Positions 3,996 through 61,761 of a stretch of DNA of 64,000 nucleotides are shown here, piece after piece. Source of the DNA: Methanobacteriota archaeon. Its GTDB lineage: Archaea; Thermoplasmatota; Poseidoniia; Poseidoniales; Thalassarchaeaceae. Every line of letters begins with the position of its first letter. Positions within the stretch are counted from its first letter, which is position 1. Under the pieces are notes generated by a model, which was not told the DNA's origin, ran no database searches, and was given only the letters and a program-made list of their open reading frames with translations. Made by a program: the position numbers and the translations under genes. The DNA is taken from positions 24,917-88,916 of the forward strand of contig JAERSV010000029.1 in the NCBI GenBank assembly GCA_016845345.1, written 5' to 3'.

Positions 3996-4487
3996 ATGTC
4001 AAGTGAAAATAATGATGAGAATAAACCCCAAGACAAAGAATATGATTCAATTGATCCAGCACCGCCTAGCAAAATTAGGTCAATAGATGAATTAAAAACG
4101 GTGCTTTGCAACGAAAATGGCAGAATGTTTCTCCGAATGCGTGCCTTATTTACCCTGAGAAACATTGGTGGACCAGAAGCAATCGATGCTCTTGCCTCTA
4201 GTTTTGGAAGTGCTTCTGTACTTCTAAAGCATGAAGTCGCCTACGTCTTAGGACAGATGCAGGATAGTTATGCCATAGACGCTTTAATTGAGAGGTTGGC
4301 AGACCCAAATGAAGACTCAATTGTTCGTCACGAAGCAGCAGAGGCATTAGGCGCGATCGGGGATACTCGTTCATTGGGAGTGCTAAAACAATATCTAAAT
4401 GATGACTGTGTCGTGGTTTCAGAATCATGTGAAGTTGCACTCGATTTGTTAGAATGGACAAGTAACGACTCGTTAGAATATGAGTGA
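3996..4487 (+). CDS. HEAT-repeat protein resembling one half of deoxyhypusine hydroxylase (DOHH)
   Basis: RMRALFTLRNIGGPEAIDAL...LLKHEVAYVLGQMQD...IVRHEAAEALGAIGD...VVSESCEVALDLLEW. Two His-Glu motifs lie 33 residues apart (H79-E80, H112-E113). Start is 3 nt after the mqnD stop. Confidence 0.8.
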   Translation: MSSENNDENKPQDKEYDSIDPAPPSKIRSIDELKTVLCNENGRMFLRMRALFTLRNIGGPEAIDALASSFGSASVLLKHEVAYVLGQMQDSYAIDALIERLADPNEDSIVRHEAAEALGAIGDTRSLGVLKQYLNDDCVVVSESCEVALDLLEWTSNDSLEYE

Positions 4488-18108: not shown

Positions 18109-18139
18109 GTTGTCGGCGGCCTACCCATCCGGCTTGAAT
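18109..18139 (-). promoter_or_regulatory. ProRS promoter (ATTCAA box + GGATGGGTAGG + GC box), predicted leaderless
   Basis: Sense strand: ATTCAAGCCGGATGGGTAGGCCGCCGACAACATG. Only 3 nt separate the GC box from the ATG. Confidence 0.45.
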
Positions 18140-18140
18140 A

Positions 18141-18431
18141 CTACGCTACTAAATCCGTGTTAGGAGGGCTAGTTGGATTGAATATAGCGAGTACCGCAGC
18201 CGCCATCCAAACCAATTCTAGTACAACGAATGCCCATTCTCCTGTATGTAATGCTCTGACCCCCAATATTGCTGAGCCAACAGCCATCAAAATTAGATAC
18301 TTCATGCCTCTACTATTGAGGTAACCTCTGGTTTCTAAAATAAATGCGATGAGAATACACAACATTCCGACATAGGATGCAATACTTGTAATGGGTTCGA
18401 GGCTATCAAAGGCGATCGTTGATTCAGTCAT
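18141..18431 (-). CDS. small 3-TM membrane protein (hypothetical)
   Basis: ATG at 18431 overlaps the coaBC stop (18424..18426) by 8 nt (ATGACTGA), suggesting translational coupling. Three hydrophobic helices. Confidence 0.5.
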   Translation of the reverse strand: MTESTIAFDSLEPITSIASYVGMLCILIAFILETRGYLNSRGMKYLILMAVGSAILGVRALHTGEWAFVVLELVWMAAAVLAIFNPTSPPNTDLVA

Positions 18432-22513: not shown

Positions 22514-22543
22514 TTATCAATAGGGCGCGAGTCGGCCCGCTTG
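22514..22543 (+). promoter_or_regulatory. kptA promoter with GC box variant, predicted leaderless; shared divergent region
   Basis: TTATCAATAGGGCGCGAGTCGGCCCGCTTGATG. On the opposite strand the same AT-rich box is followed by CCGCGCCGG toward the zinc-ribbon/actin gene pair. Confidence 0.4.
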
Positions 22544-23227
22544 ATGCTACGAGAGTGTGAACTACACGGTACCTTTGAAGGGGAACTTTGCCCAGCCTGC
22601 AACAGCGAAGGAAAATTCGTTATGAATGGACGAGAGCGAGACCAAATCGCCCGAAGAATGGCTGGTATTCTGCGTCATTTCCCTGAAAAATTTGATTTAG
22701 AAATGGACATTAATGGATGGGTCAGTATTCGAGAATTATCTAATGCAATTTCCCGTAAAGATAAGCGTAAGCACTGGTTGAGAGACCGACATATACAAGC
22801 AATTGTAGATACTGACCCTAAGGGTCGTTACGAAATTCGTGGAGGGAATGTGAGAGCAACTTATGCACACACAGTGGAAATAGAACTCGACTTGCCATCA
22901 GATAATATTCCTGAATTATTGTATTATCCAGTTTCAAGAGACGAACTTGATATTCACCTTGAGGGAGGAATTCATCCTGGTGGAAGAAAGTGGGTTCATC
23001 TTTCTAAAACCATTACAAATGCAGCAAATGCTGGCGCTGTTCACCATTCCCGCCCTGCAATCATAGAAATAGATATCATTCAGATGCAAGCATCTGGGAA
23101 CACAGTTTTTCACGCAGGAACCACTGTTTACCTTACCGAGATTGTCGATGCTCAGTTCTGTTCACAAGTTGCTTATGATGATACAGAATATTCACTCATG
23201 CTAGAAGAATGGGGAGAAGAAGAGTAA
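22544..23227 (+). CDS. kptA: RNA 2'-phosphotransferase (Tpt1/KptA) with N-terminal zinc-ribbon-like extension
   Basis: IARRMAGILRHFPEKFDLEMDINGWVSIRELS, GRYEIRGGNVRATYAHT and HLSKT match the KptA family. N-terminal CELHG...CPAC. Confidence 0.85.
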   Translation: MLRECELHGTFEGELCPACNSEGKFVMNGRERDQIARRMAGILRHFPEKFDLEMDINGWVSIRELSNAISRKDKRKHWLRDRHIQAIVDTDPKGRYEIRGGNVRATYAHTVEIELDLPSDNIPELLYYPVSRDELDIHLEGGIHPGGRKWVHLSKTITNAANAGAVHHSRPAIIEIDIIQMQASGNTVFHAGTTVYLTEIVDAQFCSQVAYDDTEYSLMLEEWGEEE

Positions 23228-24533: not shown

Positions 24534-26222
24534 ATGAGCGAGAACAGTCCATTCCTTGGTGAACAATATGATGAATCACAAAGCGAAATGATGAGTGAGA
24601 TGGTAATCTTAGTTGATGAAAATGATCAACAAATTGGCTCCATGTCTAAGGTAGACAGCCATCTGGGTGAAGGTGCGCTTCACCGGGCTTTTAGTGTATT
24701 ATTGTTCAATTCTTCACAAAAAATGTTGATTCAAAAAAGAGCAGATACCAAGATTACATTCCCATCGGTGTGGGCTAACTCCTGTTGTAGTCATCCTCTT
24801 GACGTCGAGGGTGAAACAGAAATGGAGGATGACCTTGGAGTCAAGCGCGCTGCCATTCGCAAGATGGAGCAAGAACTTGGAATTTCTTCGGACCAGTTGC
24901 CGATTGATGATTTTCATCTGATTACAAGAATGCATTATAGAGCACGAGCTGATGAGAAATGGATTGAACATGAATTAGACCATATTCTGCTAATTCAAGC
25001 AGATGTTGATTTGAATATTAATCCAAACGAAATCTCTGAAATTCGTTGGGTTAATCAAACGCAGATAGAGGATTTAATCTCAAATTCACCTGATAACGGT
25101 GAAATTATTGCCCCTTGGTTTAATGAAATATACTCCAGATATGCGTCTCAATGGTGGGGTCATCTTGATGAGGTGAGTTCTCTTCAAGACAATGTGGTTC
25201 ACCATATTGGGGATGTTGAGACCAGCGAACACTCATCCTTACTTGATGCACTCAAAGGGCATGCAACGGAAGTTGAAAGCAGAATAATTACCGCACTTGA
25301 AAAATCAAACCATGAACGTTTGAAGAAGGCAATGATGCATCTCATCGAAGGAGGTGGAAAGCGCCTTCGTGCAATACTACCATGGCTTGTCGCTGATGCT
25401 TGTGGTGGTTCATCTGATTCATTGTATGACTTGGGAGCAGCCATAGAAATCATCCATAATTTCACCCTCATTCACGACGATATCATGGATAATGATGAAA
25501 TGAGGAGGGGAAGAGATGCTGTACACATAGCATATGATATGCCCACCGCAATCAACGCAGGAGATGCAATGTTAGCAGTTTCTTTTGAATTATTGAGTGA
25601 GGCAGAAGAAATTTCGTCAGACAAATTCCGTTCTTTAGTTTCAATAATTGGTAAGATGGTACGCAAGGTATCTGAAGGCCAACAATTGGACATGGATTTT
25701 GAGAATAGAGATTTTGTTAGTGAAAAAGAATACTTGACTATGATCTCCGGAAAAACGGCTGCCATGTTCACAACTTGTGCAAGAACCGGTGCAATTCTTT
25801 CAGGTGCTACTCCCGATGTCATTGAGAATCTTGCTGATTGGGGTGAAAACCTCGGACTTTGCTTTCAATTAATGGATGATTTAATCGATGCCACGGGTGA
25901 TAGTGAAACTCTTGGGAAACCTGCTTGTAGTGATGTAGTAGAAGGGAAAAGAACACTGATTGCGATTCATGCACTGGGATTAGAACCGAGTAATCTTCCA
26001 ACATTCCACGAAGTATTTTCCTCTAGAAATGAAGACACACCGCGGGAAACACTTGATGAAGTTCTCAGTGAATTACAGGCTTCCGGCTCAATTGATTATG
26101 CTAAGGACAGAGCAATGAGCTTCCATCAAAAGGCACATGCCTGCCTAGACAAATTACCAGATTCACCAGCCTTGTCAATATTAAGACAATTAACAGACTG
26201 GCAACTCATCAGAATTTCCTGA
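24534..26222 (+). CDS. fusion protein: type 1 isopentenyl-diphosphate isomerase (N) + geranylgeranyl/polyprenyl diphosphate synthase (C)
   Basis: N-half Nudix-type IDI: HRAFSVLLFNSSQKMLIQKRADTKITFPSVWANSCCSHP, WIEHELDH. C-half trans-prenyltransferase: first Asp-rich motif LIHDDIMDNDEMRRGR, second FQLMDDLID. One uninterrupted 562-aa ORF. Confidence 0.85.
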   Translation: MSENSPFLGEQYDESQSEMMSEMVILVDENDQQIGSMSKVDSHLGEGALHRAFSVLLFNSSQKMLIQKRADTKITFPSVWANSCCSHPLDVEGETEMEDDLGVKRAAIRKMEQELGISSDQLPIDDFHLITRMHYRARADEKWIEHELDHILLIQADVDLNINPNEISEIRWVNQTQIEDLISNSPDNGEIIAPWFNEIYSRYASQWWGHLDEVSSLQDNVVHHIGDVETSEHSSLLDALKGHATEVESRIITALEKSNHERLKKAMMHLIEGGGKRLRAILPWLVADACGGSSDSLYDLGAAIEIIHNFTLIHDDIMDNDEMRRGRDAVHIAYDMPTAINAGDAMLAVSFELLSEAEEISSDKFRSLVSIIGKMVRKVSEGQQLDMDFENRDFVSEKEYLTMISGKTAAMFTTCARTGAILSGATPDVIENLADWGENLGLCFQLMDDLIDATGDSETLGKPACSDVVEGKRTLIAIHALGLEPSNLPTFHEVFSSRNEDTPRETLDEVLSELQASGSIDYAKDRAMSFHQKAHACLDKLPDSPALSILRQLTDWQLIRIS

Positions 26223-26259
26223 TCTACAACCAATGATTGTATATCTAATAATTCAGCAC

Positions 26260-28467
26260 TCAATCTGAATAGTAGGTTTCGCCAGGTATTTCTGGTTTCA
26301 TGCCTTTGCGTTGGCGGATTTCTCCAACCACTTTTTCTAGTAATGACCGAGGTAACTCTTCAAAACCACAGTTTTCAGAATTCCAAACCGCTCTTCCTTG
26401 GCTAGCCGCACGAATATCGTTTGAAAATCCAAAGGTTTCAGCGACTGGAACTTTCCCAATTACTGTGGTTATTTCACCATCAGATGGCATGTCCTCAATT
26501 TCCCCACGACGTTGGGTGATTTCTCTTGTAACTCCACCAAGCCAGTCGTTTGGTACCGAGACGTGCATCTTTTGCATAGGCTCCATGATTGCTGTGTTTG
26601 CCCTAACGAGAGCACCTTTGATGGCATTTCTCATTGCAGGAATAGTTTGAGCAGGTCCGCGGTGGATTGCATCTTCGTGAAGTTTAGCATCCTTCAACTT
26701 GACCATGACACTCATGAGTGGTTCTTCAGCAATAGGTCCTTTCTTGCACACTTCATTGAATGCTTCAATCAGCAATTCCTTTGTTTCGTGGAGATACTGG
26801 ATACCCTTTGTATCATTGACCAATACATTGGTTCCGTTGATTGCATAGGTCTTGCGCATCATATCTTTGTCCATGCCATATTCAGCAAATTTTCTACCGG
26901 TTTCCTTTGCGTCATTTGGACGGATTGTACCTGAGCCTATTTCACCTTGGCGGAGTGCATCTACCACTTCATTTGGCAGTTGTTCAACCTCGATGTAAAA
27001 TCTGTTGTGTCGATTAGGTGATTTGCCTTCGAATGGTCTCCCATGGTTATTTCCTGCTGTTGTTTCACGATATACAACAATTGGTTCAGAAACAGAGACC
27101 TTGATACCTTGTTCCTCTTCGATTCTGTATGTTGTGATTTCAAGGTGAAGTTCTCCCATACCAGCAAGTAGTGCTTCTCCAGTTTCTGCATTTGTAGTAA
27201 CTTGTAAAGATGCATCTGCTTTTGCAAGTGAACGAAGCGCATCGATGAATTTTGGCAAATCCTTCATGGATTTGGGTTCAACAGCGACTGTAACCACTGG
27301 TTCTGAATAGTGTCTGATAGCCTCAAAAGGAATAATATCCTTATCGCGTGCTACTGTAACACCCGCTGCAGCTGAACGAATACCTGTAAGAGCAGCGATA
27401 TTTCCGGCAACAATTTTTGGAATTGAGATACGGTCTCCACCAACCATCATGCTAACCTGTTGTACTCGCTCGGCTTTACTGCCTCCAATAGCCCACAAGC
27501 TTTCACCGTGGTTTATGGTTCCAGAATAAAGGCGCCCTACTGCTACTTCTCCTGCATGGGGGTCCATCCAAATTTTAGTGATCATTAGTGCAAGTGGCCC
27601 TTCAGGGTCACAGTTAATCATCGCTTGACCCATTTCAGATTCAGAATCGCCGCTCCAAATATTAGGGATACGGTATGGTTGTGCAATAACCGGGCTTGGT
27701 AGTTGAGTAACTGCCATATCTAGCAGAACCTCGTGCACAGGGGCCTTCTTCGCTAGTTCTTTTTGTTCTTCATTATTACAATAATCAAAGATATCTTTGA
27801 ATGATATTCCGGATTTTTGCATATATGGTACAGTAATACCCCAGTTGTGGTAAGCAGAACCGAAGGCAACAGTTCCATCTCCAACACTAACTTGCCAAGA
27901 TTTCTTGTATTCATGAGGCGCAAATTGACGGATTAATGTGTTTACTTTAGTAATCTGTGCCATGAATCTCTCTTGCATATCCTCAGGAGTTACTTGTAAT
28001 TCGTTAATCAGTCGGTCTACCTTGTTAATGAAAAGAACAGGCTTTACCTTTTCTTTTAGTGCTTGACGCACCACAGTTTCAGTTTGTGGCATGGCCCCTT
28101 CAACTGCACATGTTAGAATAAAACACCCATCTACAGCGCGCATGGCTCTTGTGACATCCCCACCAAAATCTACGTGACCAGGTGTGTCAATCAAATTGAT
28201 TAGGAAATCAGTATCTTCAACTGCGTGCACCATTGATGCTGATGCAGCATTAATTGTAATTCCTCTAGCAGATTCCTGTTCATCAAAATCTAGAACTCTG
28301 CTTTTACCAGCAAGGTCCTCACTCATCATACCAGCACCAGCAATCAAATTATCAGAAAGAGTTGTCTTTCCATGGTCAATGTGAGCAGCAATGCAAAGAT
28401 TTCGAATTCGATCTCTATCGTGCATGACTTCTGTTGCTTTTGCGATGTTGTCTTCCTTTCGTCCCAT
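26260..28467 (-). CDS. translation elongation factor 2 (aEF-2)
   Basis: IRNLCIAAHIDHGKTTLSD, DTPGHVDF and NKVDR GTPase motifs, at 735 aa. C-terminal region contains the diphthamide-site HRGPAQ. Confidence 0.95.
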   Translation of the reverse strand: MGRKEDNIAKATEVMHDRDRIRNLCIAAHIDHGKTTLSDNLIAGAGMMSEDLAGKSRVLDFDEQESARGITINAASASMVHAVEDTDFLINLIDTPGHVDFGGDVTRAMRAVDGCFILTCAVEGAMPQTETVVRQALKEKVKPVLFINKVDRLINELQVTPEDMQERFMAQITKVNTLIRQFAPHEYKKSWQVSVGDGTVAFGSAYHNWGITVPYMQKSGISFKDIFDYCNNEEQKELAKKAPVHEVLLDMAVTQLPSPVIAQPYRIPNIWSGDSESEMGQAMINCDPEGPLALMITKIWMDPHAGEVAVGRLYSGTINHGESLWAIGGSKAERVQQVSMMVGGDRISIPKIVAGNIAALTGIRSAAAGVTVARDKDIIPFEAIRHYSEPVVTVAVEPKSMKDLPKFIDALRSLAKADASLQVTTNAETGEALLAGMGELHLEITTYRIEEEQGIKVSVSEPIVVYRETTAGNNHGRPFEGKSPNRHNRFYIEVEQLPNEVVDALRQGEIGSGTIRPNDAKETGRKFAEYGMDKDMMRKTYAINGTNVLVNDTKGIQYLHETKELLIEAFNEVCKKGPIAEEPLMSVMVKLKDAKLHEDAIHRGPAQTIPAMRNAIKGALVRANTAIMEPMQKMHVSVPNDWLGGVTREITQRRGEIEDMPSDGEITTVIGKVPVAETFGFSNDIRAASQGRAVWNSENCGFEELPRSLLEKVVGEIRQRKGMKPEIPGETYYSD

Positions 28468-28518
28468 CAGTCTTCACCTTCGGTGAAGCCGCCGACCTAA
28501 CATCGGTTCATAAAGGCC
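28468..28518 (-). promoter_or_regulatory. EF-2 promoter/5' leader: GGCC-TATA-like box, GC box TAGGTCGGCGGCTT, SD AAGGTG
   Basis: Sense strand: GGCCTTTATGAACCGATGTTAGGTCGGCGGCTTCACCGAAGGTGAAGACTGATG. The GC box (28486..28499) is identical to the one upstream of S12. Confidence 0.5.
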
Positions 28519-28576
28519 ACCACCCCAGTTATTCACTAAAAGTGACAACATCATCAAGAGATGCCTTGTCAAGAAC

Positions 28577-29734
28577 TTAAACAGCAGGATAAACAGTGGG
28601 TTTCATCATATCATCTAGAATTGCTTGAAACTCAGAATTAATTGACATAATTTTATCTTTTGTGTGAGCGATTTGTTTAACAATAATTTGACGAGCATTT
28701 GAACTTGATTTGTTTAGTTGGCTTCGCTTATCATCCAAAAATCTCAATGCTTCCCTCATCGCTGAAATACATTCATTGCTTCTAGTTTCAAACATACTCA
28801 TGGTGCTTTCAGAATGTTGTTTTTCAGATTTACTGGCAATTTTTGAATAGGATGTTCTCATTTTTGCTGTTTCAATTGACGCTGTTGGTGTCCTTTTTAG
28901 ATTGGAATTAAATTTGACGAGAGACCAAGCCCTAATCCACCACTTAGAAGGGTCCCAGTGCCACCATCTAATCCCATTTCGATAATCTGCTTGGAATGCG
29001 TGGTGAAAGTTATGGTACCCCTCTCCGAAAGTGAAGAAGGCAAGCCATTGGGAATCTTTGCTACTATTGTTAATTGTATAGGATTGTTTACCCCAGACAT
29101 GAGCCGCGGAATTAATCAAAAAAGTGCCATGGTGGACAAACACTGTTCGGACCAGCCCTCCCCAAACAAAACCCCCGATTGCAGTAGGTATGCCACCAAT
29201 CGCATAACCAACTAGTGCGGGCGCTACCATACCTACCAAAAAGCCAATTGAAAAAATAAAACGATGTTGTAATCTAATAACCCAATCTTTTTGCAGGTCT
29301 CGAACATTGGAATAGTCTACCTTTCCATCATCTTCATCAATCAAAATCCAAAAGAAATGGCTCCACCAAAATCCTCTGGAAGCATTATACGGGTCACCTT
29401 CTTTATCGGTTTCTTTGTGGTGCCTACGATGATCGCTACACCATTCTAAAATTGAATTTTGAAAAGCACCCGCTCCAAATAGAGCATACAAAATTCTTAG
29501 TGGTAAAATGGCTTGATGGCTTCGGTGGGAAAATAACCTGTGGTAACCAACAGTAATGGATAAGCCGCATGCGAAGTACCAAACGAAAAAAATGCTTAGT
29601 TCAACCCATGTTATTCCATAAGTCACACCATGCCATATTGAGCCAATAAGTGCCAACACAGGTGTCAAAACGAGAAAAATTGTGTTAATCCAATTCAACT
29701 TTATTGGATCTTTGGTTTCAATTGTATTAGACAT
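28577..29734 (-). CDS. acyl-CoA (delta-9 type) fatty-acid desaturase, membrane bound
   Basis: Three histidine boxes HRLFSHRS, HRRHH and HNFHHAF with 4 TM helices, plus about 100 aa of C-terminal coiled-coil-like extension. Confidence 0.85.
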   Translation of the reverse strand: MSNTIETKDPIKLNWINTIFLVLTPVLALIGSIWHGVTYGITWVELSIFFVWYFACGLSITVGYHRLFSHRSHQAILPLRILYALFGAGAFQNSILEWCSDHRRHHKETDKEGDPYNASRGFWWSHFFWILIDEDDGKVDYSNVRDLQKDWVIRLQHRFIFSIGFLVGMVAPALVGYAIGGIPTAIGGFVWGGLVRTVFVHHGTFLINSAAHVWGKQSYTINNSSKDSQWLAFFTFGEGYHNFHHAFQADYRNGIRWWHWDPSKWWIRAWSLVKFNSNLKRTPTASIETAKMRTSYSKIASKSEKQHSESTMSMFETRSNECISAMREALRFLDDKRSQLNKSSSNARQIIVKQIAHTKDKIMSINSEFQAILDDMMKPTVYPAV

Positions 29735-29849
29735 TTCACCACTACATCCATACTTAGTGATTTACTTGCCATTGAATTTGCCCTATTAACTTCAAGGAAC
29801 TCATCACCTGAATTAAACGATTTAATCAACTGGAAAAGCCTAGTGAAAA

Positions 29850-30491
29850 TTAGCGTGCCGAGGCAGCAATTCTCTCTACTTCTTCCTTCTTGCCAATTGC
29901 ATAAGATGTTACATCTCCATTGGCAGCTTTGGATATCTCAGTTACGATTCCCTCAGTTAACGTTCGAGTACTCTTACGAGTTGCTTGAGTCGAACCTGTA
30001 GCCAGATGTCTGATAGCAACATCAATTCGGCGCATAGGCGCGCTATCAACCGCTTTTGGCTGACTAACAGCTCCGAATTTAATTCGTGTAATTTCTTCCA
30101 TTGGTGCTGAATTTGCTAATGCATCCACGAACACTTGTAGAGGGTTTGTATCATCTCTTTCTGCAATGCGGTCCAATGCTGTCTCAAATGCTTTGGTGGC
30201 TGTGGTTTTTTTACCGGTATATTTGCCGGTTCTCATCAATCCGTTGATAAATCTCTCAACGATTGATAACTTGCTTTTACCAAACCAAGCATTTGCATGT
30301 CTGCCTCCAGTGTGTGGCACACCGACAGTTTTGAGATTAACGTAAGGTGCAATTCCTGGGTCTTCACAAGATACAGTAGTTGCATCCCATTTGTTGAATA
30401 CAAGGGTACCAATTCCTGCTATTGGTGCCTCGTTGACTACCTTCTCCTCTGAAGGTTCTTCTTCAACTTGTTCTTCAACTTCTTCACTCAT
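29850..30491 (-). CDS. rps7: 30S ribosomal protein S7 (uS7) with acidic N-terminal extension
   Basis: LVFNKWD..., HTGGRHANAWFGKSKLSIVERFINGLMRTG and the C-terminal AIGKKEEVERIAASAR are typical of archaeal S7. SD GAGGTGAT lies upstream. Confidence 0.9.
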   Translation of the reverse strand: MSEEVEEQVEEEPSEEKVVNEAPIAGIGTLVFNKWDATTVSCEDPGIAPYVNLKTVGVPHTGGRHANAWFGKSKLSIVERFINGLMRTGKYTGKKTTATKAFETALDRIAERDDTNPLQVFVDALANSAPMEEITRIKFGAVSQPKAVDSAPMRRIDVAIRHLATGSTQATRKSTRTLTEGIVTEISKAANGDVTSYAIGKKEEVERIAASAR

Positions 30492-30503
30492 TATATCACC
30501 TCA
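30489..30503 (-). promoter_or_regulatory. intra-operon ribosome-binding site embedded in the S12 stop codon
   Basis: Sense strand TGAGGTGATATAATG: S12 stop TGA, then GGTGAT (complementary to a canonical 16S 3' end), then the S7 ATG. Confidence 0.6.
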
Positions 30504-30929
30504 GCGAACTGGCTTCTCTTTTCGGCCTCTAACCATTTCATCAAGTGAAACACCATTGACCTTGATTACCTTGAATCTAACTCCGGGGATATCTCCGTAA
30601 GAACGTCCCATGCGGCCACCGATACCTTCGACCATAACTTCATCATGTTCATCGATGAAATTGATTGCACCGTCACCTGGTGCAAAGGCAGTCAACTTGT
30701 TTCCAGTTCGGATTAAACTAATTTTAACTGCCTTACGAATACCTGAATTAGGTTGCTTTGCTTCAATACCAACCTTCTCAATTACGATACCTTTGGCTTG
30801 TGCGGAACCACCTAATGGATCAGATTTTTGCTTGAGCTTGAGAACTCGCTTCTTGTAACCCCGGTCCTTCCAGCGAAATCGCTGTCTGTCCCGCTTCATT
30901 TTCGCACCTGCAAAGAGTCCTCTACCCAT
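30501..30929 (-). CDS. rps12: 30S ribosomal protein S12 (uS12)
   Basis: [53 protein letters not shown]...[19 protein letters not shown] at 30929. Confidence 0.95.
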
Positions 30930-30977
30930 GGTTACACCTTGAAGCAAGCCGCCGACCTACCCCGCGTATATGAGGCC
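30930..30977 (-). promoter_or_regulatory. S12-S7 operon promoter/5' leader with the same GC box and SD
   Basis: Sense strand: GGCCTCATATACGCGGGGTAGGTCGGCGGCTTGCTTCAAGGTGTAACCATG. GC box at 30946..30959. Confidence 0.5.
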
Positions 30978-31079
30978 ATCGGCATTGAATCAGTAGACAG
31001 AGACGCAGGGTGCCGATTCTTGACTTGTTCAATTAGATGTCCCCCAACCTTCAAGCGATGTATCTAAGTCGCAGTCACA

Positions 31080-32345
31080 ATGGCATTCAGAGACCATCTT
31101 GAAGGGGCGGTCACGATTGACAATACAAACCCCATCAATGAGATGAGATTGCATATTGAATCACACCCAAGTGATGCAATAATGTTCACTAATGTAGAGG
31201 GCGCAAAAGGGCATTCAGCCGCCGCAAATGTATGTCTTAGAGATAATATGACGAGTCATTTTGGGATACCACCTGCCGAATTACTGAACACCCTAGAATG
31301 GGCTATGGATAACCGTTCAGAGCCAACTAAGTACGAAGGAGATGCACCAGTGATGCAAAATTCCATCACTCCTGTAGATTTAGGTAAACTGCCAATTCCA
31401 CACCACTATCCCCAAGATAGAGGGAGATACATGTCTGCTAGTATTATCATAGCCGAATATGATGGGGTTCGGAATGTGTCCTTCCACCGACAATTTGTCA
31501 GAGATGAAAATCATCTAGTCGCAAGACTAGTCCCTAGACACCTACGGACAATGGTAGACGAAGCGAGAGAGAAAGGAGATTCAGTGAATATTGCTATTGT
31601 TAACGGAGCAGACCCCTGCCTGTTATTAGCCGCGGCAATGTCATTCAACGAGCCAATTGATGAGTTAACTGTAGCCTCTTCTCTCTATCAGAAATTCTAT
31701 GGCGAACCCATGCAGGTGATTATTCTGGAAAATGGTGTGACTGTTCCAGCCGATGCAGAATACGCAATGTGTGCCACAATTACCAATGAAGATGATGATG
31801 AAGGGCCGTACATCGATATTACCGGCACAATTGATGATGTGCGTAAACAACCAGTGATACAAGTTCATTCTATTCACCATAGAGACAACCCAATTTTTCA
31901 TGCAATATTACCTGGATTAGCGGAACACCACGCTCTCATGGGTCTACCGCGCGCCCCAACAATTTTCTCCAGTGTTTCAAAAGTGTGTGATTGCCGGGAT
32001 GTTGTCATGACATCTGGTGGATCAGGTTGGCTTGCCGCAGTTGTTCAAATTGAACCGCAATCTAATGAAGATGCCAAGAATGCAATAATGGCTGCCTTCA
32101 GTGGCCACCCTTCCATGAAAGCCGTAACAATTGTTGAAACGGATATCAACCCGGCTGACCCAGTAAGGGTTGAATGGGCTTTGATGACTAGATGGCAACC
32201 TGACAAAGACACGGTTATTCTCAGTAATCAGCGAGGCAGTAGCCTAGACCCAACTAGAACTGATGATGGTTTGACTTCGAAAATCGGTTATGATGCAACC
32301 ATCCCATTTGGCAGTGACAAGAAGCCATATACATCCGTCCTCTAA
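31080..32345 (+). CDS. UbiD-family (prFMN-dependent) decarboxylase
   Basis: Family pattern RGRYMSASIIIAEYDGVRNVSFHRQFV..., VNIAIVNGADP, DEGPYIDITGT. Plausibly a quinone-biosynthesis decarboxylase. Confidence 0.8.
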   Translation: MAFRDHLEGAVTIDNTNPINEMRLHIESHPSDAIMFTNVEGAKGHSAAANVCLRDNMTSHFGIPPAELLNTLEWAMDNRSEPTKYEGDAPVMQNSITPVDLGKLPIPHHYPQDRGRYMSASIIIAEYDGVRNVSFHRQFVRDENHLVARLVPRHLRTMVDEAREKGDSVNIAIVNGADPCLLLAAAMSFNEPIDELTVASSLYQKFYGEPMQVIILENGVTVPADAEYAMCATITNEDDDEGPYIDITGTIDDVRKQPVIQVHSIHHRDNPIFHAILPGLAEHHALMGLPRAPTIFSSVSKVCDCRDVVMTSGGSGWLAAVVQIEPQSNEDAKNAIMAAFSGHPSMKAVTIVETDINPADPVRVEWALMTRWQPDKDTVILSNQRGSSLDPTRTDDGLTSKIGYDATIPFGSDKKPYTSVL

Positions 32346-37802: not shown

Positions 37803-38503
37803 TCTCCATTTCCGTTTGCTAGTTGGCCTGCAATAGCATCAGCCAATTCTGTTGAATGTTCATTGTCTCGTACGAATGCCAATGCATCACGTACCATTCT
37901 AATCCCATCTGGTTCTCCATCAACCCAAATTCTACCGTTTGCACCTAAGATTATTCTACAATTACTTGCATCCTTTAGTTGGTTGATGATTGTATTAGAA
38001 CCACTAGAAATAGTACTCACAAGGTGAGGTGGAATTGTATCGACGAACCCTGAGTTAACCTTTCTTAATCCCATTCCTTTCATCGTTACTACTGAAGAAT
38101 GGGCTTCGTCAACTTCTTGAACACGGCATAAAATCGTAGTCCCAACATCCATAGCATCCCTGGTCCCACCGTATTCTACTTTCATTGGTGCTAGACTCAT
38201 TGGGAGAATAGCATTGAATGGAGCATTCAAGTCAATAAACCAAATATTAGACCTCATGCCTTCTATGTATCCGATTACTAAATCCCCAGGTCTAGGAAAG
38301 TAAGCAGTATGAACAGGAATAATTGAGATTTCACCCGATTTTTCAACCAAGTAACCAAGTTTGGTTGCTATCAATTCACCGTTCAATTTTATGACTCCAT
38401 GACCAAGTTGGTCACTGGTATCTGAACTAATTTTATCGCCGGGTATCACCAGGCTGCCGGATGCAGCCGAAGTGCGCCCATCCGAGGCGCCACTACTACT
38501 CAT
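37799..38503 (-). CDS. rrp4: exosome RNA-binding subunit Rrp4 (S1 + KH)
   Basis: N-terminal domain LVIPGDKI, S1-like PRPGDLVIGYIEG...WFIDLNAP..., KH-like C-terminus. ATGA overlap with rrp41. Confidence 0.85.
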   Translation of the reverse strand: MSSSGASDGRTSAASGSLVIPGDKISSDTSDQLGHGVIKLNGELIATKLGYLVEKSGEISIIPVHTAYFPRPGDLVIGYIEGMRSNIWFIDLNAPFNAILPMSLAPMKVEYGGTRDAMDVGTTILCRVQEVDEAHSSVVTMKGMGLRKVNSGFVDTIPPHLVSTISSGSNTIINQLKDASNCRIILGANGRIWVDGEPDGIRMVRDALAFVRDNEHSTELADAIAGQLANGNGE

Positions 38504-38543
38504 ATTTCTTCTCCGAGCCGGCCGACCCGCCCATCATCTATAA
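38504..38543 (-). promoter_or_regulatory. exosome operon (rrp4) promoter/leader with GC box variant
   Basis: Sense strand: TTATAGATGATGGGCGGGTCGGCCGGCTCGGAGAAGAAATATG. Confidence 0.45.
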
Positions 38544-40047: not shown

Positions 40048-40158
40048 CTGCTCACCTAAGCCCGGCTGTCGGACGGACTCTTATGAACCTTGAGAACCGA
40101 TAACCCCAATCTGAAGACTCGCCCACTTCTTTTTCACCCACTACATCCTGCGCTACTC

Positions 40159-61660: not shown

Positions 61661-61721
61661 AGTAGGGGCGAGATGATGTCTCTTGATGTATTCACCGCTT
61701 CCTCAATTAGTAGTCCGGCGC

Positions 61722-61761
61722 ATTCAAACGGGATGGGTGTGACGGCGGCATAGGTGGATGC
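61722..61761 (+). promoter_or_regulatory. SRP54 promoter/leader (ATTCAA box + GGATGGGT + GC box + SD)
   Basis: ATTCAAACGGGATGGGTGTGACGGCGGCATAGGTGGATGCATG. 22 of the first 29 nt are identical to the ProRS upstream region. Confidence 0.45.

What the first reader, a model, noticed from the sequence alone, without database searches (positions are those of the whole stretch)
28468..28518. EF-2 and S12 promoters share a near-identical TATA / GC-box / SD block with an exact 14-mer
Sense-strand upstream sequences:
- EF-2: GGCCTTTATGAACCGATGTTAGGTCGGCGGCTTCACCGAAGGTGAAGACTGATG
- S12: GGCCTCATATACGCGGGGTAGGTCGGCGGCTTGCTTCAAGGTGTAACCATG

Shared features:
- The 14-mer TAGGTCGGCGGCTT is identical (plus-strand 28486..28499 and 30946..30959).
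- In both it is followed by exactly 5 nt and then AAGGTG.
- In both it is preceded, 15-16 nt upstream, by GGCC plus an AT-rich TATA-like box.

Interpretation:
- In this otherwise AT-rich DNA, the GC island sits where archaeal promoters usually have the AT-rich region that melts, between the TATA box and the expected start site.
- That placement recalls the GC-rich discriminator of bacterial stringently controlled rRNA and r-protein promoters. It could be a binding site or melting barrier that co-regulates translation-apparatus genes.
- Alternatively, the EF-2 promoter may be a duplicate of the S12 promoter, created when the desaturase gene split the S12-S7-EF2 cluster.
Basis: seen in the sequence. 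Interest (0 to 1): 0.62.

Follow-up and report, generated by a model that had tools for sequence, protein, structure and literature searches.

The report
Shared GC-box promoter of translation genes
The identical 14-mer before the S12 and EF-2 genes is one copy-pair of a conserved promoter element (TATA-like box, 9 bases, GGTCGGCGGC) that marine Group II archaea place just upstream of the start site of a small set of genes, mostly ribosomal-protein and translation genes, which suggests a so far undescribed way of co-regulating the translation apparatus in archaea.

Summary
TAGGTCGGCGGCTT lies on the minus strand at 28486-28499 (before EF-2) and 30946-30959 (before S12); none of 100 shuffles gave two copies.

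The window comes from a Marine Group II archaeon (Poseidoniales, Thalassarchaeaceae). The 14-mer is the near-consensus core of a module conserved across the order: a TATA-like 7-mer (TTATGAA, TTATCAA, TCATATA), 9 nt that are often G-rich, then GGTCG[GC]C[GC]G[GC].

- **Where it occurs.** It stands before S12 and EF-2 in both MGII families. In the window it also stands before the exosome operon (Rrp4) and Tpt1. Elsewhere in Poseidoniales genomes it precedes S15, L40e, L15e, H+-pyrophosphatase and an FKBP gene.
- **It acts as DNA.** Spacing to the TATA box is fixed, while spacing to the start codon runs from 3 to 25 nt. Tpt1 and L40e have no leader, so the box lies upstream of the start site, at about -15 to -5.
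- **It is specific.** It is not a general promoter feature: four sites in 74 kb. It is not a product of the desaturase insertion either, because it is present where S7 and EF-2 are adjacent.

Start sites were inferred, not mapped, and the factor that reads the box is unknown. I judge it a new variant of a known kind, of moderate to high interest.

The parts
30966..30973 (-). S12 promoter: TATA-like box TCATATAC, preceded by GGCC at 30974-30977
   Evidence: Read directly. It is invariant (T.AtATA) in an alignment of 110 distinct S12 upstream sequences from across Poseidoniales.
30946..30959 (-). S12 promoter: the 14-mer TAGGTCGGCGGCTT. The GC-box core GGTCGGCGGC is 30948-30957.
   Evidence: The core AaGTCGGCg is conserved as strongly as the TATA box in 110 S12 upstream sequences. 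PWM score 31.1 bits.
30930..30945 (-). Predicted S12 5' UTR, GCTTCAAGGTGTAACC. The inferred start site is G at 30945; the Shine-Dalgarno AAGGTG is 30935-30940.
   Evidence: The start site is inferred from the TATA-to-ATG distance of leaderless module genes. TGCTTCAA and the SD are conserved. The S15 leader is nearly identical. Not mapped experimentally.
29850..30929 (-). S12 (30501-30929) and S7 (29850-30491) genes, the transcription unit driven by the S12 promoter
   Evidence: Pfam Ribosom_S12_S23 and Ribosomal_S7. The gap between the genes is 9 nt, and no module lies before S7.
28507..28514 (-). EF-2 promoter: TATA-like box TTTATGAA, preceded by GGCC at 28515-28518
   Evidence: Read directly. 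TTTAtgAA is conserved in 113 distinct EF-2 upstream sequences.
28486..28499 (-). EF-2 promoter: the 14-mer TAGGTCGGCGGCTT. The GC-box core GGTCGGCGGC is 28488-28497.
   Evidence: A GGT[CG]G[GC]C box stands at the same distance from the TATA box throughout the order, including where S7 and EF-2 are adjacent. PWM score 31.6 bits.
28468..28484 (-). Predicted EF-2 5' UTR. The inferred start site is A at 28484; the Shine-Dalgarno AAGGTG is 28475-28480. It overlaps the inverted repeat CTTCACC-GAA-GGTGAAG at 28472-28488.
   Evidence: Geometry as for S12. The inverted repeat and its compensatory variants appear. Not mapped experimentally.
26260..28467 (-). EF-2 gene
   Evidence: Pfam GTP_EFTU, EFG_III, EFG_IV and EFG_C.
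38518..38543 (-). Third copy of the module: TTATAGAT (38536-38543), 8 nt, GGTCGGCCGG (38518-38527). It lies 14 nt before the ATG (38503) of Rrp4, the first gene of the run Rrp4-Rrp41-Rrp42-L37ae-Pcc1-prefoldin.
   Evidence: PWM score 30.7 bits. The box is conserved before Rrp4 in MGIIa and MGIIb relatives.
22514..22543 (+). Fourth copy of the module: TTATCAAT (22514-22521), 8 nt, AGTCGGCCCG (22530-22539), then CTTG and the ATG (22544) of Tpt1/KptA RNA 2'-phosphotransferase. It has no leader and no Shine-Dalgarno sequence.
   Evidence: PWM score 29.0 bits. It is conserved before Tpt1 in many relatives, always 3-7 nt before the ATG.

Best explanation
The 14-mer is the core of a class-specific core-promoter element of Poseidoniales (Marine Group II archaea).

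**The module.** It consists of:
- a non-canonical TATA box (TTATGAA, TTATCAA or TCATATA);
- 9 bp, usually starting with a G run;
- the oriented, non-palindromic box GGTCG[GC]C[GC]G[GC] on the non-template strand.

Transcription is inferred to start 2-4 bp after the box. The box therefore occupies about -15 to -5, the stretch that must be melted to form the open complex.

**Where it occurs.** It marks a small set of transcription units: S12-S7, EF-2, S15, L40e, L15e, the exosome/L37ae operon, Tpt1, H+-pyrophosphatase and an FKBP gene. This is mostly the translation apparatus and functions linked to growth.

**Proposed mechanism.** A protein working inside the pre-initiation complex reads the box as double- or single-stranded DNA. 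Candidates are a TFB- or TFE-type initiation factor, or a factor docked on TBP-TFB. That protein would gate DNA opening, so all these promoters would respond together to its availability. Functionally this would resemble a bacterial discriminator or the metazoan ribosomal-protein core promoter.

**Shown versus inferred.**
- Shown: the module, its conservation, its fixed spacing to TATA and its gene set.
- Inferred: the start-site position, action at the DNA level, and co-regulation.
- Unknown: the reader protein and the sign of regulation.
For: 1. **Real and non-random.** The 14-mer occurs twice, against 0 of 100 shuffles that gave two copies.
2. **Conserved across the order.** Box and TATA are the two strongest conservation peaks in unbiased alignments of 110 S12 and 113 EF-2 upstream sequences from both MGII families.
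3. **More copies in the window.** The same module stands before Rrp4 and Tpt1 and is conserved in relatives.
4. **Specific.** A 30-nt PWM gives 4 sites of 29-32 bits in 73.7 kb; the next best scores 11.7. In 2.09 Mb of Poseidoniales DNA, 258 of 270 hits of at least 16 bits belong to these four families.
5. **Independent genome scans.** Two scans of 185,579 species genomes with TTATGAA-N9-GGTCGGCGG[C/G] gave 224 stretches.
   - 82 of them are Poseidoniales, where I would expect well under one by chance. That figure is my estimate of the lineage's share of the collection.
   - All 82 lie 3-25 nt before a start codon, in the sense orientation.
   - They fall in only 7 gene families: S15 46, H+-PPase 14, L40e 8, EF-2 6, Tpt1 4, FKBP 2 and L15e 2.
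   - The other 142 are from other organisms, all bacteria apart from one Pyrobaculum contig. Those examined lie inside coding sequence.
6. **Positioned by the transcription machinery.** Spacing from the TATA 7-mer to the box is 9 nt in S12, EF-2, Rrp4 and Tpt1, where spacing was left free. Distance from box to start codon ranges from 3 to 25 nt.
7. **Leaderless members.** Tpt1 and L40e have no leader or SD, and the TATA end lies 22-25 nt before the ATG. That is the canonical archaeal TATA-to-start geometry, so the box lies upstream of the start site.
8. **Sequence rather than composition.** GTCG is kept where the 3' half becomes A-rich. The module is identical in loci of 38-65% G+C.
9. **Precedent.**
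   - Archaeal DNA opens from about -12 (PMC7289017).
   - The sequence of this region sets how strongly TFE stimulates a promoter (PMC4495717).
   - TFE-beta is depleted in stationary phase (PMC4495717).
Against: - **No start site mapped.** No RNA run holds this genome. Metatranscriptome contigs of a relative run straight through the spacers and give no 5' ends.
- **Reader protein unknown.** No reader protein has been identified.
- **Strict sequence specificity.** A 10-bp box this specific is also what a dedicated transcription factor would give.
- **Translation genes without it.** ProRS, a second aaRS, SRP54, aIF5A and diphthamide synthase in the window or its extension lack the module.
- **Non-translation members.** Three members are not translation genes, so 'translation regulon' is too narrow.
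- **Partial gene set.** Only two exact TATA/box variants were scanned genome-wide, so the full gene set, rRNA and tRNA promoters included, is unknown.
- **EF-2 inverted repeat.** The compensatory inverted repeat in the EF-2 leader of some lineages would fit a start site a few bases further upstream than inferred.
Confidence: 0.45

Rival explanations
1. The box is a classical operator. A dedicated sequence-specific transcription factor, most likely a repressor given the position between TATA and the start site, would bind it. Binding would block RNA polymerase recruitment, or activate, and so define a regulon of growth-related genes.
For: - The 10-bp sequence is highly specific and conserved across an order.
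- It is present at only a small fraction of promoters.
- By established knowledge, characterised archaeal repressors such as MDR1, LrpA, Phr and NrpR bind just downstream of TATA or over the start site.
Against: - The box is not palindromic, and it always lies in one orientation.
- It keeps a spacing of 9 (plus or minus 1) bp from the TATA box in nine gene families. It also co-occurs with an unusual TATA variant and a G run directly after TATA. Operators of dimeric factors are usually dyads and vary more in position.
- No candidate factor gene is linked to the sites.
Confidence: 0.3
2. The module is simply the optimal strong-promoter sequence of this lineage. It would fix the start site and give high constitutive output, and it would be retained by selection for expression level, with no regulatory role.
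For: - The members are genes expected to be highly expressed: ribosomal proteins, EF-2 and H+-PPase.
- The S12 and S15 promoters are nearly identical from the box to the ATG, as if converging on one optimum.
Against: [quoted passage not shown]
- Other presumably strong promoters nearby lack the module: aIF5A, proteasome alpha and prefoldin.
- A G+C-rich melted region is the opposite of what raises strength in studied archaeal promoters, where this region is A+T-rich in some, though not all, archaea (PMC7289017).
Confidence: 0.12
3. The box acts as RNA. It would be part of a 5' leader that binds a ribosomal protein or the ribosome and controls translation or stability, like bacterial r-protein leaders.
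For: - S12, S7 and EF-G belong to an autoregulated operon in bacteria.
- The EF-2 leader of some lineages has an SD-sequestering inverted repeat with compensatory changes that starts at the last base of the box.
Against: - In Tpt1 and L40e the box ends 3-5 nt before the ATG, with the TATA box 22-25 nt upstream, so the box cannot be in the mRNA.
- Its distance to TATA is fixed, while its distance to the SD and ATG varies.
- There is no Rfam match.
- No conserved pairing partner for the box was seen by eye in the S12 upstream sequences; no covariation analysis was run.
Confidence: 0.05
4. This is the first reader's alternative: the EF-2 promoter is a recent duplicate of the S12 promoter, made when the desaturase gene split S12-S7-EF-2. 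A variant is that recent gene conversion keeps the two identical.
For: The 14-mer is identical, and the SD spacing is identical, in this genome.
Against: - EF-2 has its own TATA plus box in lineages without the desaturase, where the S7-EF-2 spacer is about 90-120 nt.
- The TATA variant and the 9-nt spacer are gene-specific and stable across the order.
- In 96%-identical relatives the S12 box differs from the EF-2 box at 2 of 14 positions, so there is no concerted evolution.
Confidence: 0.03

Closest known systems
Bacterial discriminator of stringently controlled rRNA and r-protein promoters (G+C-rich segment between the -10 hexamer and +1)
   Same: - It is a G+C-rich stretch in the region that must melt, immediately upstream of the start site.
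- It is found preferentially at promoters of the translation apparatus.
- It is plausibly a handle for growth-dependent control of open-complex formation.
   Different: - The machinery differs: TBP, TFB, TFE and an archaeal RNAP rather than sigma-70, ppGpp and DksA.
- The archaeal box is a longer, specific sequence (GGTCGSCSGS), not just G+C richness.
- Kinetic behaviour is untested.
- This is an analogy of function, not membership.
Initially melted region of archaeal promoters and its effect on TFE dependence (Blombach et al. 2015, PMC4495717; review PMC7289017)
   Same: - The position is the same, about -12 to -1.
- In Sulfolobus the sequence of this region determines how strongly TFE-alpha/beta stimulates a promoter.
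- TFE-beta drops in stationary phase, which gives a route to growth-phase control. The EF-1alpha and tRNA promoters there are the more TFE-dependent ones.
   Different: - In some (not all) studied archaea the region shows raised A+T content, and no conserved sequence motif for it was found in the literature searched here. In this case it is G+C-rich and conserved at the sequence level, and it defines a discrete promoter class.
- Poseidoniales TFE has not been studied.
Metazoan TCT initiator / TRF2 core-promoter system of ribosomal-protein genes (reviewed in PMC8047918)
   Same: It is a dedicated core-promoter architecture, distinct from the standard TATA/Inr promoter, shared by ribosomal-protein and translation-factor genes and read by a variant basal factor.
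   Different: - The sequence and position differ: TCT spans the start site, and those promoters are independent of TATA.
- No variant TBP or TFB has been shown in Poseidoniales.
- The resemblance is in logic only.
Archaeal repressor operators located between TATA and the start site (for example MDR1, LrpA, Phr, NrpR)
   Same: The location is the same, immediately downstream of TATA and overlapping the site of RNAP entry. Such operators also occur at a limited set of promoters.
   Different: - Known operators are mostly dyad-symmetric and vary in position.
- This box is asymmetric, has a fixed orientation and is locked at 9 bp from TATA.

Membership tests
Archaeal TBP/TFB-type core promoter | An A/T-rich TATA box centred about 26-27 bp upstream of the transcription start | tested here: met
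   In the leaderless members (Tpt1, L40e) the TATA-like 7-mer ends 22-25 nt before the ATG. The same 7-mer stands at the same distance from the box in all families. The start itself is inferred, not mapped.
Archaeal TBP/TFB-type core promoter | A purine-rich BRE directly upstream of TATA | tested here: inconclusive
   The bases before TATA are G/C-rich (GGCC, CGG, TGG) rather than A-rich. A conserved CG lies about 7 nt upstream. The BRE consensus of this lineage is unknown.
Archaeal TBP/TFB-type core promoter | An A+T-rich initially melted region or proximal promoter element (about -12 to -1), as reported for some archaea | tested here: not met
   This stretch is GGTCGGCGGC, 90% G+C, in a genome of about 42% G+C. 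This is the unusual feature of the promoter class.
Bacterial stringent (discriminator) promoter | Sigma-70 -35 and -10 hexamers with a G+C-rich discriminator before +1 | tested here: not met
   The organism is an archaeon. The upstream element is a TATA box at about -26. Only the position and G+C richness of the segment are analogous.
Bacterial stringent (discriminator) promoter | A short-lived open complex sensitive to ppGpp/DksA or the initiating NTP | not testable with these tools
   This needs in vitro transcription kinetics.
Ribosomal-protein leader / autoregulatory mRNA element | The conserved element lies within the transcript and forms a structure bound by an r-protein | tested here: not met
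   The box ends 3-5 nt before the ATG of the leaderless genes. It has no Rfam match. Its spacing is fixed to TATA, not to the SD or ATG.
Regulon motif (cis-element shared by co-regulated genes) | It recurs at unlinked genes, is conserved at orthologous promoters, and is depleted elsewhere | tested here: met
   Nine transcription units carry it. It is conserved across the order. There are 4 sites in 73.7 kb, and 258 of 270 strong hits fall in the four known families.
Regulon motif (cis-element shared by co-regulated genes) | Member genes are co-expressed and a trans-acting reader exists | not testable with these tools
   No usable RNA data exist for this genome. No factor has been identified.
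Segmental duplication / mobile promoter cassette | Copies extend beyond the functional core, are recent, and are absent from orthologous sites in relatives | tested here: not met
   Local alignment of the two regions shows similarity only from GGCC to the ATG, with gaps. Both sites are ancestral to the order.

The most novel reading that the evidence does not exclude
Poseidoniales would have a dedicated initiation pathway for the translation apparatus and other growth genes. In this reading, a variant basal factor (a TFB or TBP paralogue, or TFE) reads a G+C-rich, sequence-specific element in the region to be melted, together with a non-canonical TATA box.

This would be the first cis-element for growth-rate or 'stringent-like' control of ribosomal-protein genes in archaea. 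It would be functionally convergent with the bacterial discriminator and with the metazoan TCT/TRF2 system.
Probability: 0.25. Interest if true: 0.8.

Novelty: new variant of a known kind. Interest (0 to 1): 0.62.

Why it matters
How archaea coordinate ribosome synthesis with growth is largely unknown. I know of no archaeal counterpart of the bacterial discriminator/ppGpp system or of eukaryotic ribosomal-protein promoter codes, and the papers searched here describe none.

Marine Group II archaea are among the most abundant planktonic archaea and are uncultured, so sequence-derived regulatory logic is almost the only handle on their physiology. This finding offers three things:

- **A marker.** A compact, position-locked promoter element shared by S12-S7, S15, L40e, L15e, EF-2, the exosome operon and a few growth-linked genes gives a concrete regulon. 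Its expression in metatranscriptomes could serve as a marker of growth state.
- **A testable substrate.** A box of 10 bp can be mutated, to ask whether archaeal initiation factors read the sequence of the melted region.
- **A biotechnology candidate.** The module is a candidate strong or regulated promoter.

Tried and rejected
- **RNA evidence for start sites.**
  - No RNA run holds the window; only the DNA run of origin does.
  - For an MGIIa relative (L039), metatranscriptome runs exist only as assembled contigs.
  - Those contigs cross both the UbiD-S12 and S7-EF-2 spacers and give no 5' ends.
- **Rfam.** A scan of 26000-32000 gave nothing relevant. L425 gave nothing either.
- **tRNA or rRNA promoters.** There are no tRNA genes in the window or in 157 related loci, so the module could not be tested on stable-RNA promoters.
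- **ProRS as a member.**
  - Its upstream region reads GGGTAGGCCGCCGAC, a 12/15 match.
  - I rejected it: the sequence drifts in relatives, the TATA spacing differs by 3-4 nt, and the PWM score is 9.3 bits.
  - SRP54 (GTGACGGCGGC) is likewise weak, and its conservation could not be checked.
- **A hairpin with TATA in the loop.** Upstream GCCGATGGCC can pair with the box in the S12 region. I rejected this because the pairing is not maintained in other lineages.
- **G-quadruplex reading of the G runs.** G tracts are inconsistent between families.
- **Outgroup test in other Thermoplasmatota.** Not achieved.
- **Extending the window.** The right side gave 10 kb (L158). The left-end protein was not on record.
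- **Metagenome scan with a third box variant.** It added EF-2, PPase and S15 copies and one possible rpoE' case, but no confirmed new family.
Full report
**1.
- On the minus strand, TAGGTCGGCGGCTT lies at 28486-28499, 18 nt before the EF-2 ATG at 28467. A second copy lies at 30946-30959, 16 nt before the S12 ATG at 30929.
- It occurs nowhere else in the window, even with two mismatches. None of 100 dinucleotide-preserving shuffles gave two copies.
- In both copies five bases follow, then AAGGTG. In both, GGCC plus an A/T-rich 8-mer lies upstream: TTTATGAA at 28507-28514 and TCATATAC at 30966-30973.
- A local alignment shows that similarity is confined to the stretch from GGCC to the ATG.
- Pfam confirms the genes: S12 30501-30929, S7 29850-30491, a fatty-acid desaturase 28577-29734 and EF-2 26260-28467, all on the minus strand. 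UbiD is transcribed divergently from 31080.
- The window is 38-45% G+C.

**2. Source organism.** Relatives of S7 and EF-2 in one-genome-per-species collections are all Marine Group II archaea (order Poseidoniales). The closest, at 96-98% identity, are Thalassarchaeaceae, that is MGIIb. Gene order around the locus is conserved across the order.

**3. Conservation at the orthologous promoters.**
- I extracted the 90 nt before S12 (75 loci) and before EF-2 (73 loci). Later I used 110 and 113 distinct upstream sequences.
- MAFFT alignments made without reference to the motif show four conservation peaks before S12: T.AtATAg, AaGTCGGCg, TGCTTCAA and the Shine-Dalgarno sequence. Before EF-2 the conserved run is TTTAtgAACC....caGGTgGcC.
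- The box is as well conserved as the TATA box, in both MGII families.
- EF-2 has its own TATA plus box in the many lineages where S7 and EF-2 are adjacent and no desaturase is present. This refutes the idea that the EF-2 promoter is a copy made by the desaturase insertion.
- In 96%-identical relatives the S12 box reads TAGGACGGCGGCCT while the EF-2 box is unchanged. The exact 14-mer identity in this genome therefore reflects two near-consensus sites, not gene conversion.

**4. More copies in the window.**
- Relaxed searches found the same architecture in two more places:
  - Before Rrp4, the first gene of the exosome/L37ae operon: TTATAGAT 38536-38543 and GGTCGGCCGG 38518-38527, with the ATG at 38503.
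  - Before Tpt1/KptA: TTATCAAT 22514-22521 and AGTCGGCCCG 22530-22539, with the ATG at 22544.
- Both are conserved in relatives fetched with 10-kb flanks.
- The box [AG]GTCG[GC][GC] occurs within 48 nt upstream in 76% of S12 sequences, 35% of EF-2 sequences (the rest carry GTGG variants), 35% of Tpt1 sequences and 9 of 9 Rrp4 sequences. For 18 of 22 other gene families of the neighbourhood the figure is 0%.
- I built a 30-nt PWM from the orthologous promoters. In the window plus a 10-kb extension (73.7 kb, both strands) it gives four sites of 29-32 bits. The next best scores 11.7, and shuffles reach 17.3 at most.
- In 2.09 Mb of Poseidoniales loci, 258 of 270 hits of at least 16 bits belong to the four families. 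The PWM is partly circular for those four families. The absence of other hits is the informative result.

**5. Independent test on unlinked genes.**
- I scanned 185,579 species genomes for TTATGAA-N9-GGTCGGCGGC and for TTATGAA-N9-GGTCGGCGGG.
- Of these 224, 82 are Poseidoniales contigs. All 82 lie in the sense orientation 3-25 nt before a start codon.
- They fall in seven families:

| Gene family | Hits |
|---|---|
| Ribosomal protein S15 | 46 |
| Membrane H+-pyrophosphatase | 14 |
| Ribosomal protein L40e | 8 |
| EF-2 | 6 |
| Tpt1 | 4 |
| FKBP-type isomerase | 2 |
| Ribosomal protein L15e | 2 |

- The other 142 hits come from other organisms, all bacteria apart from one Pyrobaculum contig. 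Those examined lie inside coding sequence, as expected by chance for a 17-base pattern in 596 Gb.
- A metagenome scan with a third box variant added more EF-2, PPase and S15 copies.
- Leaving out the two genes of the original finding, four of seven further units encode ribosomal proteins: S15, L40e, L15e and Rrp4 (whose operon includes L37ae). If such units make up about 3% of all units (my estimate), this has a probability of roughly 3e-5. That is an inference, not a tool result.
- The set is not purely translational. Several translation genes in the window lack the module: ProRS, a second class II aaRS, SRP54, aIF5A and diphthamide synthase.

**6. Anatomy and position.**
- Where spacing was left free (S12, EF-2, Rrp4, Tpt1), the TATA 7-mer is followed by 9 nt and then the box. 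The 9 nt are gene-specific but usually begin with a G run.
- The box always lies in the same orientation and is not palindromic.
- Distance from box to start codon varies:

| Gene | Distance from box to start codon (nt) |
|---|---|
| Tpt1 | 3-4 |
| L40e | 4-5 |
| Rrp4 | 14 |
| H+-PPase | 14-17 |
| S12, S15, EF-2 | 16-20 |
| L15e | 23 |
| FKBP | 25 |

  (for Rrp4 and S12, direct reading.)
- Tpt1 and L40e have no Shine-Dalgarno sequence, and the TATA 7-mer ends 22-25 nt before their ATG. That is the canonical archaeal TATA-to-start distance, so these are leaderless genes and the box lies upstream of the start site.
- Transferring this geometry places the S12 start near G 30945 and the EF-2 start near A 28484. 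The box then occupies about -15 to -5.
- This is the region opened in the archaeal pre-initiation complex, which is A+T-rich in some archaea (PMC7289017).
- These start sites are inferred. No RNA data could be laid on this genome, and contigs of a relative's metatranscriptomes were uninformative.

**7. Sequence rather than composition.**
- The GTCG core is kept even where the 3' half has become A-rich, as in AAGTCGCAAAG or AAGTCGGGAAAA before S12 in some MGIIa lineages.
- The exact module is found in loci from 38% to 65% G+C.
- A pure melting barrier would conserve G+C content, not sequence. Something reads the box.

**8. Mechanism.**
- The most likely reading is a class-specific core-promoter element recognised within the pre-initiation complex, which gates DNA opening. 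Four features favour this over a free-standing operator:
  - the position is locked to the TATA box;
  - the orientation is fixed;
  - the box is asymmetric;
  - it is associated with a non-canonical TATA box and a G run.
- There is precedent that the sequence of this region sets TFE dependence, and that TFE-beta falls in stationary phase in Sulfolobus (PMC4495717).
- A dedicated transcription factor, for example a repressor binding between TATA and the start site, remains a strong rival.
- A merely 'strong promoter' consensus and an RNA-level role are less likely. The duplication hypothesis is refuted.
- In function the element resembles the bacterial discriminator and the metazoan TCT/TRF2 ribosomal-protein promoter (PMC8047918). 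It is not a member of either.

**9. Novelty.**
- Only one of the papers searched holds both 'Poseidoniales' and 'promoter', and its title and abstract concern marine genome diversity and bioprospecting, not promoters.
- A review of ribosomal-protein gene regulation says only that regulatory annotation of such genes is mostly absent or inaccurate, and names no archaeal promoter motif.
- I rate the finding a new variant of a known kind: a lineage-specific regulon or core-promoter motif with an unusual G+C-rich position.

**10. Limits.**
- No start sites are mapped.
- The full gene set is unknown.
- No outgroup was tested.
- The reader protein is unidentified.

Noticed in passing
window 28472-28488 (-): The EF-2 leader carries a perfect inverted repeat, CTTCACC-GAA-GGTGAAG, that would sequester the Shine-Dalgarno sequence. 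Related MGIIb lineages keep the pairing with different sequences (ATCACC/GGTGAT, CCCAACC/GGTTGGG, GCTTCACC/GGTGAAGC), while other lineages lack it. The inferred start site (A 28484) would cut its 5' arm, so it may form only in read-through RNA coming from S7 or the desaturase.
   Followed up: partly
window 28577-29734 (-); loci L001-L080: The fatty-acid desaturase between S7 and EF-2 is present in only some lineages of both MGII families and absent in most. The conserved S12-S7-EF-2 cluster is therefore split repeatedly or variably. In the window the desaturase has its own TATA-like element (GTTAATAGG) and no GC box.
   Followed up: partly
window 18109-18145 (-) and 61717-61761 (+): The regions before ProRS and SRP54 resemble each other at 22 of 31 nt (ATTCAA-N-C-N-GGATGGGT-N2-G.CG.CG.C). 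Both end in a degenerate version of the GC box, 3-4 nt further from the TATA-like element than in the main module. The ProRS version drifts in relatives, and the SRP54 version could not be checked.
   Followed up: partly
L425 (metagenome contig Ga0066376_10000947), about 4250-4394 (-): TTATGAA-N9-GGTCGCCGGG is followed by a G+C-rich stretch of about 115 nt containing a TTTT run, and only then by an rpoE'/Rpo7-like gene. This could be a long structured leader or a small RNA. It has no Rfam match, and the lineage was not verified.
   Followed up: partly
L166, L183, L253 and others (S15 loci) compared with window 30930-30957: The S15 and S12 promoters are nearly identical from the box to the start codon: GGTCGGCGGCTCGCTCAAGGTGTTATCATGGG against GGTCGGCGGCTTGCTTCAAGGTGTAACCATGGG. 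S12, S15 and EF-2 all begin with Met-Gly-Arg.
   Followed up: no
L039:3477-3851 (MGIIa relative): Metatranscriptome contigs from four runs span the S7-EF-2 spacer, and some also span the UbiD-S12 spacer. This is compatible with read-through transcription, or with DNA carry-over in the RNA libraries.
   Followed up: no
L020, L023, L033, L076, L139, L156, L314: Contigs that clearly belong to Marine Group II archaea are filed in public MAGs named as bacteria (Deltaproteobacteria, Yoonia, Rhodobiaceae, Verrucomicrobiales). These are binning errors.
   Followed up: no
window 1-64000: There is no tRNA gene in the 64 kb window or in any of 157 related loci (2.09 Mb).
   Followed up: yes
window 40120-40127 (-): AAGTGGGCG, the MGIIa form of the EF-2 box, lies about 73 nt before the proteasome alpha gene (ATG 40047), with no recognisable TATA box at the module distance. 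It is probably a chance match.
   Followed up: no
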